Shown here one piece after another: positions 13,860-41,817 of a stretch of 64,000 nucleotides of DNA. A model generated the notes under the pieces. The model searched no databases. It saw only the letters and a list, made by a program, of their open reading frames with translations, and was not told where the DNA came from. Within the stretch, counting starts at the first letter, position 1; every line of letters starts with the position of its first letter. This stretch comes from a virus: the IMG/VR virus record IMGVR_UViG_3300031851_000004, positions 35,271 to 99,270 of that record. The stretch is one strand, 5' to 3'. The position numbers and the translations under genes are program-made.

Positions 13860-16271
13860 ATGAATAAATTCAACTTAACCCCTAGGGTTCAAAAAATAAT
13901 CAACCTGTCCAGAGAAACTTCTCTGAATTTAAACTCAACAAATATTTGTTTAAACCATCTCCTTCATTCTATTTTGGATACGGATCAATCAACTATACTT
14001 AACTTTTTTCAAGATTTAAATATACCACTAGAAGATTTTAAAATTTTTGTATACAACGAAATTGATAATGATTTCGAAGACACCGCTGCTGCAGATAAAA
14101 AACCTTCTGTTTTTTGTTCTGACTTTAAGGAGGTTTTTACTTCAGCTAAGGATTTCTCTGAAGAGTTAGATCACAACTATATAGGGGTTGAACATTTATT
14201 TTATGTCCTACTTACCTTTGATGCTTCTCCTCTACCTGGCTTCTTAAAAACTTTTGATGTTGACCTAAAGAAAGCGATTAAAAAGTTGAGGAATTTTTTC
14301 TCCACTGGGGAGTGGAAACAGAACAGGATTCCTAAAAACTTCGAATCCACCCCTCAAACAAAAGACCCATCCAGTTCAACAAATTTAGAACTTTATGCTA
14401 AAAATTATAATATATTAGCACAACAAGGTGCTTTTGATAAAGTAATAAGTAAGGAACAAGAGATAGAAAAAATATCTGAAATATTATGCAGAAGAAATAA
14501 AAATAATCCCATATTAGTAGGACCTCCAGGTACTGGAAAAACTTCTCTTGTAGAGGGGCTTGCTCAATCAATAGTAAATGGAAGTTGTACTAATTTTTTG
14601 GGAAATAAAACCATTTACGAAATTGATCTTGCTGGAATAATAGCTGGGACAAAATATCGTGGTCAATTTGAAGAAAGAATAAAAGGTATTATCCAAGAGG
14701 TCGAATCAAACCAGAATATTATTTTATTTATAGATGAAATACATACAATAATAGGTGCTGGTGCTGCTGAAGGAAGTATGGATGCTGCAAATATACTTAA
14801 ACCAGCTTTAGCTAGAAGCAGAATAAAGTGCATTGGAGCTACCACCCCTAAAGAATACAAAAAATTTACTACAAAAGACTCTGCCTTAGAAAGAAGGTTT
14901 GAAAGAATAGAGATAAACCAGCCATCACAGACTCAAACATACAAAATTATTAATGGAATCATCGAGCAATATGAAAAATTCCATCATGTTTCTTATAGAA
15001 AAAATTCTATAAAATTAGCTGTTGATATGTCGGTCAGATATATACCAGATAGACAGCTCCCAGATAAAGCTATAGATATAATAGATCAAGCGGGAGCAAA
15101 AGTTAAAATGAAAAACTTCACAAAACCTCAGTCGGCAAAAGATCTAGAGGAACAAATAGAGTTGTTGATGCTGGAGGAGGATAATGCAGAAAGTACTGAT
15201 AATAAATTTGCAATGAAGCAGGATAAGTTGATAGAGAAATATAAATCTGTTTTAGATAAATGGGCTAGTAAATACGAAAAAACAAGATTCTTTGTTACTA
15301 AAGAGGATATCTTTGATGTGATCTCTTCTAGAACTGGAATCCCCGTAGGAAACTTAACCCAAAAAGACTCTGAAAAACTCATAAATTTAAGCAAATCTTT
15401 AAACAAAACAGTCTTCTCTCAGGAAGAAGCTGTGCTAACAATTTCAGATTGCTTAATTAGATCAAAAAGTGGTCTTTCTGATGAGAATAAACCAATGGGT
15501 TCCTTTTTGTTTTTGGGTCGAACAGGTGTAGGTAAAACATATTTAGCAAAAACAATCGCTAAAGAATATTTTGGGAGCGAAGATAATTTAATACATATAG
15601 ATATGTCAGAATACTCTGAAAAGATAAACATATCAAGGCTCATAGGGTCAGCTCCTGGATACGTTGGTTACGATGATGGAGGGCAACTTACAGACAAGAT
15701 AAAATTAAAACCTTACTCAGTTTTATTATTTGATGAGGTTGAAAAAGCTCACCCTGAAGTTTTAAATATATTGCTTCAGTTGCTTGAAGAAGGTAGGTTG
15801 ACTGACAACTTCGGAAGGCTATCTGATTTTAGTAATTGTATAGTTATAATGACTGGAAATATTGGAGCCCTCAACTTATCAAAAGGGGGGTCCTTCGGCT
15901 TCAACCAGACCTCAAGCTCAGATGGAATAAGGTTAAAAATTAGAGAAGAGGCTGAAAAAACATTAACACCAGAGCTTATAAACCGACTAGATGAAATTGT
16001 AGTTTTTAATGATTTCGACAAAGATCAATTAAAGAATGTTTTAAAATTAAAAGTAAAAGCCTTGCAATTAAAACTAAAACAGAGTAAGATAGAATTGATT
16101 GTATCGGAAGAGGCTATGGATTACATGACAGACCTTGCTCTTAAAGAAGAATTAGGAGCCAGACCAGTAAAAAGAATATTGCAAAAAAAAGTTGAAAACA
16201 TAGCATCTAGATGGATTATAATCAATAAAACTGGCACATTAAAAATAAACAAAGAAGATATAAATGACTGA
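13860..16271 (+). CDS. clpC: ClpC/ClpA-type AAA+ unfoldase
   Basis: Clp N domain, two Walker A/B sets (GPPGTGKT, GRTGVGKT), LPDKAID, GSAPGYVG, short middle domain, FGF ClpP-docking loop. Confidence 0.9.
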   Translation: MNKFNLTPRVQKIINLSRETSLNLNSTNICLNHLLHSILDTDQSTILNFFQDLNIPLEDFKIFVYNEIDNDFEDTAAADKKPSVFCSDFKEVFTSAKDFSEELDHNYIGVEHLFYVLLTFDASPLPGFLKTFDVDLKKAIKKLRNFFSTGEWKQNRIPKNFESTPQTKDPSSSTNLELYAKNYNILAQQGAFDKVISKEQEIEKISEILCRRNKNNPILVGPPGTGKTSLVEGLAQSIVNGSCTNFLGNKTIYEIDLAGIIAGTKYRGQFEERIKGIIQEVESNQNIILFIDEIHTIIGAGAAEGSMDAANILKPALARSRIKCIGATTPKEYKKFTTKDSALERRFERIEINQPSQTQTYKIINGIIEQYEKFHHVSYRKNSIKLAVDMSVRYIPDRQLPDKAIDIIDQAGAKVKMKNFTKPQSAKDLEEQIELLMLEEDNAESTDNKFAMKQDKLIEKYKSVLDKWASKYEKTRFFVTKEDIFDVISSRTGIPVGNLTQKDSEKLINLSKSLNKTVFSQEEAVLTISDCLIRSKSGLSDENKPMGSFLFLGRTGVGKTYLAKTIAKEYFGSEDNLIHIDMSEYSEKINISRLIGSAPGYVGYDDGGQLTDKIKLKPYSVLLFDEVEKAHPEVLNILLQLLEEGRLTDNFGRLSDFSNCIVIMTGNIGALNLSKGGSFGFNQTSSSDGIRLKIREEAEKTLTPELINRLDEIVVFNDFDKDQLKNVLKLKVKALQLKLKQSKIELIVSEEAMDYMTDLALKEELGARPVKRILQKKVENIASRWIIINKTGTLKINKEDIND

Positions 16272-22359: not shown

Positions 22360-22452
22360 TATTAATTATATTACACTTCTTATCGTCTTTTAAAAAACTT
22401 ATTGCTTTTTTTTAAAACTACTGTAATCTATATTAGATCTTTGAAAATTTAT

Positions 22453-22873
22453 GGGGGTGTTCTGGATTCGACTAAAGTTAGATTCTTGCACCGCAAGTCG
22501 GAGACGCACTTGGCTCCGCAAAAAAGTGCAACTTGTACATGGCAAGACTAAAAATCGTGTTAGAGCTTTAAGTTTCAAGAGCCGCATCGCTTCCAAGCGT
22601 GTTGGTTTTAGAAGCCGCAAGCTCGCCTTAGCAGCTTAATCTGCTAACCTCTTACCTTTTGACGCAGATATTAAGGATAAGGGGTCATCAATCTGCAAAA
22701 ACAGAAAAAGTTTACCTGTTAATAAACTGTAGTCCGCTGAGTATTCGGAGGCAAATAATTGTAATAGGAAGTTGGATGTTAATATCACAACTTTAAAAAA
22801 AATTAACTAAACTTGTAGACGTGTCTGATTGAAGGCTATTAGGACGCGGGTTCAAATCCCGCCACCTCCACCA
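22453..22873 (+). ncRNA. ssrA: tmRNA (SsrA), tag (A)GKTKNRVRALSFKSRIASKRVGFRSRKLALAA
   Basis: GGGGGTG/CACCTCC-A-CCA acceptor with G3:U; GGATTCGAC 5' motif; T-arm GCGGGTTCAAATCCCGC; PK1 (GGAG/CTCC, GCACTT/AAGTGC); tag ending LALAA-TAA in hairpin TTAGCAG/CTGCTAA; three further pseudoknots. Confidence 0.97.
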
Positions 22874-39972: not shown

Positions 39973-41750
39973 TGTTTCATCAAACAAATTTTAATTTTAT
40001 TTCTCCACTTGGCTTGGATGAATATAAAAGTAATAATGAATTACCTTTGTTATCAAGAGAAACATATAAATTTAACAAAAGGGTAAAAGATAAGTTAGAG
40101 ATTGATCCCCTACGAGAGGTATTGCTTTTTCATAATCATTTATTTAGCCTTAAAGGTCATGAATATGCAAATAATAAATCAAATATTATTAATAATTTCA
40201 TAAATTGGATAAAATCTAAAAAAAATTTTAATAAAGAAACTTATATATTAGAGCAAATAACTAAAGAAGATTTAAACTCGTATTCCTCTTACCTTACGAG
40301 AAAAAAATTATCTAATCACCTTATCTATATATATTTCTCTGCGGTTAAGAATTTTTTTTACTATTGTTATTCAAATAAACTTATAAGTACAAAAAGTGTA
40401 TTTTTTGAGCAATTTGATTTTTCGGGAGATAGTGTTATTCAGAATGAGTCGGTTGGTATAATATATAAAATATCTAATCAAATAAGATTTGATCCCACAC
40501 ATCCTTTGTACAAATCCCTAAAGCCTTGGGATACCGATTATGTAGGTCAATCCTCGCAACCGCTTGACAAAAGATACCCCGAAGGCATAGAAGAAACACA
40601 TAATAAGTATTTAAGGGAGTCTATTGAAAAGTTTGGACTAGAAAATTTCTCAATAGAGGAAATACAGACCGAAGTAATTTTAAAAGAGTTAAATAGAGAA
40701 GAATCTAAATGGGTGAATCTGAATGATTGTATATACCCTAGAGGTTATAATATAAATATTCCATCGTTTGACGATTGGAAACCTATTTCTCGCAACGAAA
40801 GATGGATAAGAAATATGGAGACAGGTAAAGTTTTTTCAGTAAATAATTTAAAAACTTTTTGTAAAAATCCACATTTTTATGATCAAGGCTTGAGCAAACC
40901 AAAAGATTATAAAATAAATTATACTCAAATGTCAAATTGCTTGACAGGATACATATCACCAACAGACAGACAAAATGGTATAAATCTTCCCCACAAAGTT
41001 TTTGTTGATATATATTGTCCTGCTAGATATACTACATCTGACCTTGATTCTTTTGCAAATTTTAGGTACAAGAAAAGTGTAATTGATTTTTGTGAGACTT
41101 TAAAGTTTCCAATCGAGCTTGTTAACGCAAGACTTGTGGAGGATTTTGTAATTGATAGCCAGGAAGATGTAATTGATATTATTTGCGAAAAAAAGTTTTG
41201 TCGCTTAGGTGAATTTAAAAAATTATTTCAATGTTATGAATCAAATGAAAAATATCCTTTGGCTTTTCCCATCGCAAGAATAAATGAAAACTACTTTGTC
41301 CACAAAGATAATTTCAAAAATTATTATGCTTGGTGGATGTATGATCTTGAAGGAAAAGAAATTTTACTAAAAATAAATCATCCCAAAATAGGTGATATAG
41401 AATTTTATTGGAATGACTTGGGTAAATTAGCATTAGAATTAAATAAAAACGAAGTGTTTAAGGGGACTAATATACCACAAAATAAAGATATAATTCACTC
41501 AACAATAGGCAGAAGTCTTAGGGGCATAGTCACAGGAAGGAATAGAACTGCTTATGGGATTAAATTCAATCCTTGTGGAGATCATTTCAAACTAGACATA
41601 AAAAGATTTCTTAAAAATAAATATGTTGAAAAAGTTTTAAATCAAGGTTATGATGTCTTATTCCCCATCAACAAATACAAAAAAGAAGAACAATTAATTA
41701 TTAAAAAAATATTTAAATTATTAGAATGTGAATCATATTTGCGAGAGTAG
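39972..41750 (+). CDS. GIY-YIG endonuclease with N-terminal integrase SAM-like domain
   Basis: GIIYKI..YVGQS..KRY..KFG.ENF..E..GYNI; ITKEDL..Y..YL...LS....Y..AVK.FF.Y. Confidence 0.7.
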   Translation: MFHQTNFNFISPLGLDEYKSNNELPLLSRETYKFNKRVKDKLEIDPLREVLLFHNHLFSLKGHEYANNKSNIINNFINWIKSKKNFNKETYILEQITKEDLNSYSSYLTRKKLSNHLIYIYFSAVKNFFYYCYSNKLISTKSVFFEQFDFSGDSVIQNESVGIIYKISNQIRFDPTHPLYKSLKPWDTDYVGQSSQPLDKRYPEGIEETHNKYLRESIEKFGLENFSIEEIQTEVILKELNREESKWVNLNDCIYPRGYNINIPSFDDWKPISRNERWIRNMETGKVFSVNNLKTFCKNPHFYDQGLSKPKDYKINYTQMSNCLTGYISPTDRQNGINLPHKVFVDIYCPARYTTSDLDSFANFRYKKSVIDFCETLKFPIELVNARLVEDFVIDSQEDVIDIICEKKFCRLGEFKKLFQCYESNEKYPLAFPIARINENYFVHKDNFKNYYAWWMYDLEGKEILLKINHPKIGDIEFYWNDLGKLALELNKNEVFKGTNIPQNKDIIHSTIGRSLRGIVTGRNRTAYGIKFNPCGDHFKLDIKRFLKNKYVEKVLNQGYDVLFPINKYKKEEQLIIKKIFKLLECESYLRE

Positions 41751-41817
41751 CTCAGTTGGATAGAGCATCTGCCTTCTAAGCAGAATGTCGTGAGTTCAAG
41801 TCTCACCTCTCGCGCCA
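41741..41817 (+). tRNA. tRNA-Arg (anticodon TCT)
   Basis: GCGAGAG/CTCTCGC acceptor, TCTGC-CTTCTAA-GCAGA anticodon arm, GTTCAA T-loop, encoded CCA. Confidence 0.97.

What the first reader, a model, noticed from the sequence alone, without database searches (positions are those of the whole stretch)
22453..22873. Phage tmRNA with a 32-residue, purely basic degradation tag
Seen: full tmRNA architecture. The UA at -5/-4 (22536-22537) puts the resume codon at GGC 22541, 11 nt after PK1. This gives GKTKNRVRALSFKSRIASKRVGFRSRKLALAA: 11 K/R, no D/E, a quasi-duplication (SFKSRIA / GFRSRKLA) and an extra hairpin (GCTTC...GAAGC). Known: typical tags are about 10-14 aa, usually with acidic or Asn residues (E. 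coli ANDENYALAA). Inference: the phage rewrites the outcome of ribosome rescue. It may route tagged proteins to a different protease or adaptor, make them bind nucleic acid or membrane, or slow the ribosome. It could also counter mRNA/tRNA-cleaving defence toxins.
Basis: partly seen in the sequence, partly recalled or inferred. Interest (0 to 1): 0.82.

Follow-up and report, generated by a model that had tools for sequence, protein, structure and literature searches.

The report
Marine phage tmRNA, long basic tag
A large uncultured marine phage carries its own ribosome-rescue RNA (tmRNA) that adds a 32-residue, strongly positive tail ending in the usual degradation signal; the tail is kept by selection in a worldwide tmRNA family seen here only on phage DNA, so it matters to the phage, but its function is unknown.

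Summary
Window 22453-22873 (+) is a full-length one-piece tmRNA (Rfam RF00023, 133 bits; ARAGORN). Its tag reads GKTKNRVRALSFKSRIASKRVGFRSRKLALAA from GGC 22541, with 11 K/R and no D/E.

The record is phage (rIIA/rIIB, DnaE, primase) and there is no integrase at the gene. I found about 50 related tmRNAs on marine viral and metagenome contigs. Nearly every contig with usable flanks shares genes with this phage. All tags are long (19-34 aa), from net +12 to -11. Ten distinct members carry the 31-33-aa basic tag.

The tag is translated and selected: pN/pS is 0.28 in the tag frame against 1.08 and 2.18 in the other frames, the signal also holds in the 5' two-thirds, and indels are whole codons. 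The long form is a 33-nt in-frame expansion of a 20-aa tag, at the apex of a predicted ORF hairpin.

About 195 cellular tmRNAs sampled (Bacillales, Bacteroidota, Verrucomicrobiota) have 8-11-aa tags apart from one of 18 aa and one likely ARAGORN miscall, and none is close in scaffold. The host is unidentified. No SmpB or ClpP is encoded.

Phage tmRNAs are known, so this is a new variant. What the basic extension does is untested. This scan met what appears to be the same family before on other DNA (e1-5907783).

The parts
22422..22433 (+). Promoter-like element TGTAATCTATAT. It is the window's version of a GTGTA-type motif conserved about 30 nt upstream of the tmRNA across the family.
   Evidence: Upstream alignment of about 45 family members. 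Many relatives also have TTGACA about 17 nt further upstream. The sigma-70 consensus scan found nothing on the + strand in the window itself. This is an inference.
22434..22452 (+). Conserved 5' leader (TAGATCTTTGAAAATTTAT) abutting the mature 5' end. Presumably it is removed by RNase P.
   Evidence: Near-invariant in most family members. Processing is inferred from general tmRNA biology.
22453..22873 (+). One-piece tmRNA gene (ssrA), 421 nt.
   Evidence: ARAGORN; Rfam RF00023 at 133.3 bits, full length; the only tmRNA in the 99-kb record.
22499..22529 (+). Pseudoknot 1 (CGGAG...CUCCG interleaved with GCACUU...AAGUGC).
   Evidence: Rfam structure alignment; conserved in all family members.
22536..22543 (+). 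Resume context UACAU followed by the resume codon GGC (22541-22543).
   Evidence: Rfam aligns it to the consensus UAAuU-GCa. UACAU-GGC is shared by nearly all relatives.
22541..22639 (+). Tag reading frame: 32 codons (GKTKNRVRALSFKSRIASKRVGFRSRKLALAA) plus the TAA stop.
   Evidence: Purifying selection in this frame only: pN/pS 0.28 against 1.08 and 2.18; variable sites by codon position 12/7/23.
22569..22601 (+). 33-nt (11-codon) in-frame expansion relative to the 20-aa form (L135). It produces the SFKSRIA / GFRSRKLA quasi-repeat. The exact gap placement is arbitrary within the repeat.
   Evidence: Alignments.
22563..22625 (+). Predicted long nested hairpin inside the tag ORF (outer GAGCU/AGCUC stem, apical CGCU-UCCA-AGCG).
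   Evidence: Predicted in all 10 long-tag members. Consensus fold has 28 pairs, almost all maintained but only 1 compensatory. z = -1.9, with 6 of 200 shuffles folding as well. Support is weak to moderate.
22628..22647 (+). Helix 5 hairpin (UUAGCAG-CUUAAU-CUGCUAA) with the stop codon in its loop.
   Evidence: Rfam alignment and folds.
22846..22873 (+). T-arm, 3' acceptor strand (CACCUCC, with U 22867 pairing G3), discriminator A and CCA.
   Evidence: Read from the sequence; Rfam alignment.
13860..16271 (+). Context only: a ClpC/ClpA-class double-AAA+ unfoldase with a Clp_N domain, 6.2 kb upstream. It is a candidate partner, and no link has been shown.
   Evidence: Pfam and PHROG matches. Homologues are present in all 8 related phage records, including those without a tmRNA.

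Best explanation
This is a functional, phage-encoded, one-piece tmRNA. It is transcribed from its own conserved promoter-plus-leader unit. The phage records examined encode no SmpB, so it must use the host's SmpB, alanyl-tRNA synthetase and EF-Tu to enter stalled ribosomes. Translation resumes at GGC 22541 and appends Ala plus 32 residues. The last five residues (LALAA) are the canonical C-terminal degron, so tagged proteins most likely still go to a ClpX-type (or ClpA/ClpC-type) AAA+ protease. The preceding 27 residues are a lineage-specific, strongly basic module. It arose by a 33-nt in-frame expansion (a duplication of the GF[KR]x[RK] unit) at the apex of a hairpin already present in a 20-residue ancestral phage tag, and purifying selection has maintained it since. 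Shown here: the gene, the frame, the phage context, the selection and the origin of the expansion. Inferred: dependence on host SmpB and degradation through LALAA. Speculative: that the basic module acts as a second recognition element (a tether for an adaptor or unfoldase, or polyanion binding) that changes how or where rescued proteins are handled. The general benefit to the phage would be to keep ribosomes free while host and phage mRNAs are being cleaved.
For: - Full tmRNA architecture.
- Phage context: rIIA/rIIB, DnaB, primase, DnaE, no integrase. IMG/VR classes the record as viral at 73% completeness.
- About 50 homologous tmRNAs on marine contigs. Nearly all contigs with usable flanks share phage genes with this record.
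- Ten distinct 31-33-aa basic tags. Third-position-biased variation (12/7/23), whole-codon indels, R/K swaps, and pN/pS 0.28 only in the tag frame, in both the 5' and 3' parts.
- LALAA or ALAA is retained in most family tags; the acidic class ends EMVA and L136 ends ALVA.
- The 20-aa relatives show the 33-nt difference and share the outer stems.
- A conserved upstream element and leader.
- No SmpB in 6 phage records and no ClpP above cut-off.
- Cellular tags sampled are 8-11 aa, apart from one of 18 aa and one likely ARAGORN miscall at 21 aa.
- Precedent that a long tag can accompany altered protease recognition: the 27-aa Mycoplasma tag and Lon (PMC8403727).
Against: - There are no expression or tagging data.
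- The host is unknown, so a host tag of the same kind cannot be excluded.
- The window's own -35 region is degenerate, and the consensus scan found no + strand promoter or terminator.
- The complete 163-kb relative lacks any tmRNA, so the gene is dispensable for this phage group.
- The tag shows no Pfam match and no amphipathic-helix signal, so nothing points to a particular partner.
- The ClpC-like gene also occurs in relatives without a tmRNA, and alongside every tag class.
- Part of the sequence conservation could come from the ORF hairpin.
Confidence: 0.68

Rival explanations
1. Host mimicry. The long basic tag simply copies the tmRNA tag of the unknown host lineage from which the gene was captured, so nothing is rewritten.
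For: Phage tmRNAs are generally thought to derive from host lineages (PMC9004378). The host here is unidentified, and only three phylum-level samples plus one pattern-limited scan were examined. From memory, not tested: cyanobacterial and plastid tags are 15-25 aa with F-[RK] motifs and few acidic residues, and one class of this family starts ANNIVRF.
Against: None of about 195 cellular tmRNAs read has such a tag or a close scaffold. All homologues found in metagenomes that have usable flanks lie beside phage genes. Tag class changes from +12 to -11 net charge between scaffolds that are 80-90% identical, whereas cellular tags are nearly constant across far more divergent scaffolds.
Confidence: 0.1
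2. RNA-level function. The expansion matters as a long hairpin in the mRNA-like domain (stability against RNases, protein binding, or pacing of the ribosome), and the peptide is largely a by-product.
For: The nested hairpin is predicted in all long-tag members. 28 pairs are almost always maintained. z is about -2. The 20-aa form keeps the same outer stems. A 5' mini-hairpin that pairs the resume region with codons 5-7 shows apparently compensatory codon changes in L174.
Against: Only 1 pair has true compensatory change, and the covariation term is -0.65 kcal/mol. The three-base periodicity, the frame-specific pN/pS of 0.28 and the R/K-conserving two-base changes indicate selection on the peptide. 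The two constraints may coexist.
Confidence: 0.12
3. Tolerated length drift. Only the C-terminal ALAA matters, and the upstream residues are a neutral spacer that happened to duplicate.
For: Tag lengths of 19-34 aa and opposite charges within one family show great freedom upstream of ALAA. The tmRNA is dispensable in a complete relative.
Against: Within the long basic class the upstream 22 codons have pN/pS 0.32, the charge is conserved at +10 to +12, and the motif G-F-K-[NS]-R is conserved twice. The acidic class is likewise conserved, with variable sites 5/2/10.
Confidence: 0.08
4. Not phage-encoded: a host ssrA beside an integrated prophage, or a chimeric assembly.
For: ssrA is a common prophage attachment site (PMC11915505, PMC9004378).
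Against: There is no integrase or cellular gene on either side. Phage genes lie on both flanks, co-oriented. The same gene neighbourhood (deoxyribosyltransferase-like gene, then tmRNA) recurs at about 80% identity in about 20 independent contigs. GC content is uniform.
Confidence: 0.02

Closest known systems
Canonical one-piece bacterial tmRNA (SsrA, Rfam RF00023), e.g. E. coli (tag ANDENYALAA) or B. subtilis
   Same: tRNA-like domain with G3:U70 and CCA, PK1, the UA-containing resume context, a stop codon in the helix 5 loop, and a C-terminal ALAA degron. Full-length Rfam match.
   Different: It is encoded by a phage with no SmpB. The tag is about three times the modal length (10 aa, PMC11915505), has net charge +11 and has no acidic or Asn-rich segment. 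A long hairpin lies inside the ORF. No cellular tmRNA sampled is close in sequence.
Known phage tmRNAs: two-piece ssrA of Methylophilales phage Melnitz and pelagimyophages (PMC9004378); one-piece ssrA of Bxz1-like mycobacteriophages and Bacillus phage G (PMC4131195)
   Same: A complete tmRNA carried by a large lytic phage without its own SmpB. The Melnitz group is also marine and globally distributed.
   Different: This one is one-piece, not permuted. It has no detectable sequence relative among 50,697 deposited phage genomes. It belongs to a different phage group (DnaE, ClpC-like, rIIA/B). I found no description of tag class diversity from +12 to -11 or of the 31-33-aa basic tag in the papers searched.
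Mycoplasma 27-residue ssrA tag recognised by Lon (PMC8403727, citing Gur and Sauer 2008)
   Same: An unusually long tag whose extra residues carry recognition information for a protease other than ClpXP. This is a precedent for 'long tag means altered routing'.
   Different: The Mycoplasma tag is hydrophobic and aromatic, is cellular, and evolved in a lineage that lacks ClpXP. The tag here is basic, is phage-borne and keeps ALAA.
Bipartite E. coli ssrA degron (SspB-binding AANDENY plus ClpX-binding LAA)
   Same: The architecture proposed here: an upstream module for a tethering factor plus the C-terminal ALAA for the unfoldase.
   Different: No SspB-like partner has been identified. The upstream module is unrelated in sequence and opposite in charge. 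This is a functional analogy only and has not been tested.

Membership tests
tmRNA (SsrA, Rfam RF00023, one-piece form) | tRNA-like domain: 7-bp acceptor stem with the G3:U70 alanine identity pair, a T-arm, and a 3' CCA | tested here: met
   GGGGGUG pairs with CACCUCC, with G3:U (U at 22867). T-arm GCGGGUUCAAAUCCCGC. ACCA at 22870-22873.
tmRNA (SsrA, Rfam RF00023, one-piece form) | Score above the family's curated threshold over the full model | tested here: met
   133.3 bits against a gathering score of 47; model positions 1-374 of 374.
tmRNA (SsrA, Rfam RF00023, one-piece form) | Pseudoknot 1 shortly upstream of the resume codon, and a conserved UA at -5/-4 | tested here: met
   PK1 at 22499-22529, UA at 22536-22537, resume codon at 22541. 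Conserved across the family.
tmRNA (SsrA, Rfam RF00023, one-piece form) | Open tag reading frame that ends in a hydrophobic xLAA-type C-terminus, with the stop codon in helix 5 | tested here: met
   The tag ends ...KLALAA, and TAA lies in the loop of UUAGCAG/CUGCUAA.
tmRNA (SsrA, Rfam RF00023, one-piece form) | Pseudoknots PK2-PK4 between the ORF and the 3' tRNA-like half | tested here: inconclusive
   The Rfam alignment is confident for PK2 but has low posterior probability and deletions in the PK3 region. Relatives differ by indels there.
tmRNA (SsrA, Rfam RF00023, one-piece form) | Works with SmpB | not testable with these tools
   No SmpB gene in this record or in 5 related phage records. 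Use of the host's SmpB is inferred.
tmRNA (SsrA, Rfam RF00023, one-piece form) | The tag is actually translated (trans-translation) | tested here: met
   The evidence is indirect but strong: frame-specific purifying selection (pN/pS 0.28 against 1.08 and 2.18), whole-codon indels, and third-position bias. No biochemical evidence.
Bipartite adaptor-assisted degron (SspB-type) | An adaptor protein that binds the upstream part of the tag | not tested
   No candidate adaptor was identified. The ClpC-like gene is core to the phage group whichever tag class is present.

The most novel reading that the evidence does not exclude
Marine phages of this group use private, class-specific tag extensions (basic, acidic or neutral) as addresses read by a phage-encoded partner, for example the N-domain of their core ClpC-like unfoldase or an unrecognised adaptor. 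Products of ribosome rescue in the infected cell would then be diverted into a phage-controlled proteolysis or sequestration pathway, away from the host's quality-control route.
Probability: 0.15. Interest if true: 0.85.

Novelty: new variant of a known kind. Interest (0 to 1): 0.6.

Why it matters
tmRNA tags are textbook short degrons, and phage tmRNAs have so far been discussed only as extra ribosome-rescue capacity. Here a globally distributed marine tmRNA family, seen only on phage DNA, keeps the C-terminal degron but has evolved long, selected extensions of opposite charge in sister lineages. That suggests the tag carries information beyond 'degrade me', and that phages tune what happens to rescued proteins. 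It yields a small, directly testable system: a 32-residue peptide, natural 20-residue and acidic variants to serve as controls, and a co-encoded Clp-type unfoldase. It also shows that ARAGORN miscalls or misses tags in this family, so surveys that rely on ARAGORN alone are likely to miss or misread these tags.

Tried and rejected
- **Prophage-flank or host ssrA:** rejected. Phage genes lie on both sides and there is no integrase.
- **Close relatives among deposited phages:** none. Only a 46-nt T-arm match to an Alcaligenes phage. DnaE, ClpC and rIIA protein searches gave 25-41% identity to scattered hosts, which does not identify a host.
- **Exact 23-nt search with the tag end in IMG/VR:** no hit.
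- **Donor lineage through a genome contigs pattern scan:** All have 9-11-aa tags and background scaffold similarity.
- **'Relatives' of a virus record:** not available.
- **Protein atlas on the ClpC-like protein:** mixed phyla, no host signal.
- **Bacteroidota and Verrucomicrobiota samples:** short acidic tags only, apart from one of 18 aa.
- **Consensus promoter and terminator scan:** nothing on the + strand. The conserved upstream element emerged only from the family comparison.
- **Amphipathic-helix hypothesis for the basic tag:** not supported.
- **Pfam scan of the tag:** no hit.
- **Cyanobacterial or plastid origin of the tag type:** could not be tested. The text search was noise and two papers are not held.
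- **ARAGORN tags for relatives:** rejected as miscalls. I read them from the homologous resume codon.

Full report
**1. Observation.**
ARAGORN and Rfam RF00023 (133.3 bits against a threshold of 47, model 1-374 of 374) both place a complete one-piece tmRNA at window 22453-22873 on the + strand. The sequence shows these features:
- an acceptor stem GGGGGUG/CACCUCC with the G3:U70 alanine determinant;
- an encoded ACCA;
- PK1 at 22499-22529;
- UA at 22536-22537;
- resume codon GGC at 22541;
- stop codon TAA at 22637-22639 in the loop of helix 5 (22628-22647).

**2. Phage, not host.**
The window is part of a 99,270-bp IMG/VR record estimated at 73% complete. Phage replication and takeover genes lie on both sides of the tmRNA, almost all co-oriented: DnaE-type polymerase, a ClpC/ClpA-class unfoldase, glycosyltransferases, a nucleoside deoxyribosyltransferase-like gene, DnaB, primase, exonuclease, rIIA and rIIB. 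There is no integrase or cellular gene at the tmRNA, and GC content is even. The prophage-attachment-site explanation is rejected.

**3. A phage tmRNA family.**
- Anchoring on the ClpC-like protein gave six related IMG/VR contigs. Two of them carry tmRNAs. A complete 163-kb relative carries none.
- Pattern scans with invariant tmRNA blocks found two more viral contigs and 50 metagenome contigs, nearly all marine (TARA and coastal samples), the longest 140 kb.
- tblastn of this phage's ORFs against those contigs shows that nearly every one with usable flanks shares several phage genes. Often this is the deoxyribosyltransferase-like gene directly upstream of the tmRNA, at about 80% identity. No cellular context was seen.
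- ARAGORN miscalled or missed the tag in several members. I therefore read all tags from the homologous resume codon.

**4. Tag classes.**
Every tag in the family is long, 19-34 aa:
- **Long basic, 31-33 aa, net +10 to +12, ten distinct peptides.** Examples: GAKNRVRALGFKNRLAAKRRGFKSRRFALAA, and the window's tag.
- **20-21 aa.** GNKSRIKAFGFKKPELALAA, GNKDRVRAFGFKSPKLALAA, GKNKNRVVAFSPKAEQLALAA.
- **19-21 aa starting AKNI/ANNIV.**
- **34 aa, net -11.** GEGYDSIEELLEAAREEYDNLVQFEQAEELEMVA.

Most tags end in LALAA or ALAA. The exceptions are the acidic class (EMVA) and L136 (ALVA). On a tree of the scaffolds with the ORF removed, the long basic class clusters and a single origin is not excluded, but deep branches are unresolved. 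Scaffolds 80-90% identical carry different tag classes, so tags evolve faster than the rest of the RNA.

**5. The long tag is translated and selected.**
In a codon alignment of the ten distinct long basic ORFs:
- variable sites by codon position are 12/7/23 over 34 codons;
- all indels are whole codons;
- basic residues are kept through R/K exchanges that need two base changes;
- median pairwise pN/pS is 0.28.

The frame control gives 0.28 in the tag frame against 1.08 and 2.18 in the other two frames. The signal holds separately for codons 1-22 (0.32) and codons 23-34 (0.21). This rules out a downstream resume point that would give a short tag.

**6. Origin of the extra length.**
Compared with the 20-aa form (L135), the long form has 33 extra nucleotides (window 22569-22601), plus one extra codon near the start in the window itself.

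At the RNA level the long ORF is predicted to form a nested hairpin in all ten members. The 20-aa form has the same outer stems, so the expansion sits at the hairpin apex. Support for the structure is modest: 28 pairs almost always maintained but only one compensatory pair, and z about -1.9 to -2.0.

**7. Expression signals and partners.**
The family shares a GTGTA-type element about 30 nt upstream, often with TTGACA about 17 nt before it. A near-invariant leader of about 20 nt then abuts the mature 5' end. The window's version is TGTAATCTATAT (22422-22433) and TAGATCTTTGAAAATTTAT (22434-22452). The plain consensus scan found nothing on the + strand, so this rests on comparison alone.

No SmpB was found in this record or in five related records. 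No ClpP scored above the cut-off; there was one sub-threshold hit. The ClpC-like unfoldase is present in all eight related records, with or without a tmRNA and with any tag class. Linkage to the tmRNA is therefore not specific.

**8. Cellular comparison.**
| Sample | tmRNAs read | Tag lengths |
|---|---|---|
| Motif-sharing cellular tmRNAs, mostly Bacillales | about 115 | 9-11 aa, plus one 21-aa ARAGORN call that looks like a miscall |
| Bacteroidota | 50 | 8-10 aa |
| Verrucomicrobiota | 30 | 8-10 aa, plus one of 18 aa |

None of these is basic and long, and none is close in scaffold. 'Not found in those searched' is therefore the correct wording. The TTGACA -35-like element is a weak hint against a Bacteroidota host; that rests on established knowledge of Bacteroidota promoters and is an inference.

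**9. Literature.**
- Phage tmRNAs are known. About 2.3% of phage genomes carry one, mostly one-piece outside the sea and two-piece in marine phages such as Melnitz (PMC9004378). They also occur in Bxz1-like mycobacteriophages and Bacillus phage G (PMC4131195) and in huge phages (PMC7162821).
- The modal tag length is 10 aa (PMC11915505).
- The 27-aa Mycoplasma tag is described as adapted to Lon (PMC8403727). This is a precedent for long tags that carry extra recognition information.
- I found no description of this one-piece marine family or of its charged tag classes in the papers searched.
- Earlier notes of this scan (e1-5907783, e1-5342295) report what appears to be the same or a similar family on other DNA. 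They agree with what I derived here independently, but I do not count them as evidence.

**10. Mechanism.**
- **Shown:** the gene, the frame, the phage context, the selection on the peptide, and the origin of the expansion.
- **Inferred:** use of host SmpB, AlaRS and EF-Tu, and degradation through the conserved LALAA.
- **Speculative:** the 27-residue basic module is a second recognition element that alters the handling of rescued proteins.

I found no Pfam match for the tag and no amphipathic-helix signal, so nothing points to a specific partner. Rival readings (host mimicry, an RNA-level role for the hairpin, neutral length drift) are each disfavoured by specific results but are not excluded.

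**11. Verdict.**
This is a new variant of a known kind: a phage tmRNA with a selected, expanded basic tag, within a diverse tag family seen only on phage DNA. Interest is 0.6.

Noticed in passing
L140:4220-4647, L147:303-731, L148:1133-1570, L155:1116-1552, L171:3359-3787: A sister class of the same phage tmRNA family encodes a 34-residue, extremely acidic tag (GEGYDSIEELLEAAREEYDNLVQFEQAEELEMVA, net -11) that ends in MVA, not LAA. Variable sites by codon position are 5/2/10, so it too looks translated.
   Followed up: partly
L008:1501-1897, L009:1501-1896, L132:2150-2547: ARAGORN misreads the tag of two family members (wrong frame or position) and fails to detect a third that Rfam scores at 132 bits. 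Surveys of phage tmRNA tags based on ARAGORN alone would miss or garble this family.
   Followed up: yes
window 22363-22452 and the 90 nt upstream of about 45 family tmRNAs: A conserved GTGTA-type element (often preceded by TTGACA at about 17 nt) and a near-invariant leader of about 20 nt precede the tmRNA. The GTGTA motif resembles the recurrent GTGTAA element that another first-stage note ties to a phage sigma factor.
   Followed up: partly
window 22537-22560; L174:3584-3703: A predicted 6-bp mini-hairpin pairs the resume-codon region (ACAUGG) with codons 5-7 (CCGUGU). In L174 the codon changes CGT>CAT and GTT>GTA keep or extend the pairing. It could mask the resume codon until the tmRNA is loaded.
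   Followed up: partly
window 13860-16271; L002-L007; G200:C1:35760-38108; G201:C1:24237-26618: The ClpC/ClpA-class unfoldase is present in all eight related phage records (42-65% identity), and no ClpP is found. It is a core gene of this phage group and does not depend on the tmRNA.
   Followed up: partly
G002 (IMGVR_UViG_3300028844_007948, 163,424 bp, CheckV 100%): The only complete relative has no tmRNA. Among the relatives that do carry it, the gene sits in at least three different neighbourhoods: beside the deoxyribosyltransferase-like gene, beside homologues of G000 34-40 kb, and beside homologues of G000 72-74 kb. So it is an accessory gene and possibly mobile.
   Followed up: partly
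L136:1047-1456: A divergent family member with a 25-residue tag, GNSKRFKWFGFSFCKEVKRQSALVA, and a non-standard resume context (CAAAC-GGC). It sits on a long branch in the tree.
   Followed up: no
L010:1265-1586 (G005): A related phage carries a cluster of tRNA-Thr(TGT), tRNA-Cys(GCA) and tRNA-Leu(TAA) about 11 kb downstream of its tmRNA. The window has a single tRNA-Arg(TCT) at 41741-41817.
   Followed up: no
G200:C1:48395-48520: A sub-threshold ClpP-family match (E 0.0014, 14.7 bits) inside a 250-aa open frame in the 116-kb long-tag phage contig. It may be chance or a very divergent serine-protease fold.
   Followed up: no
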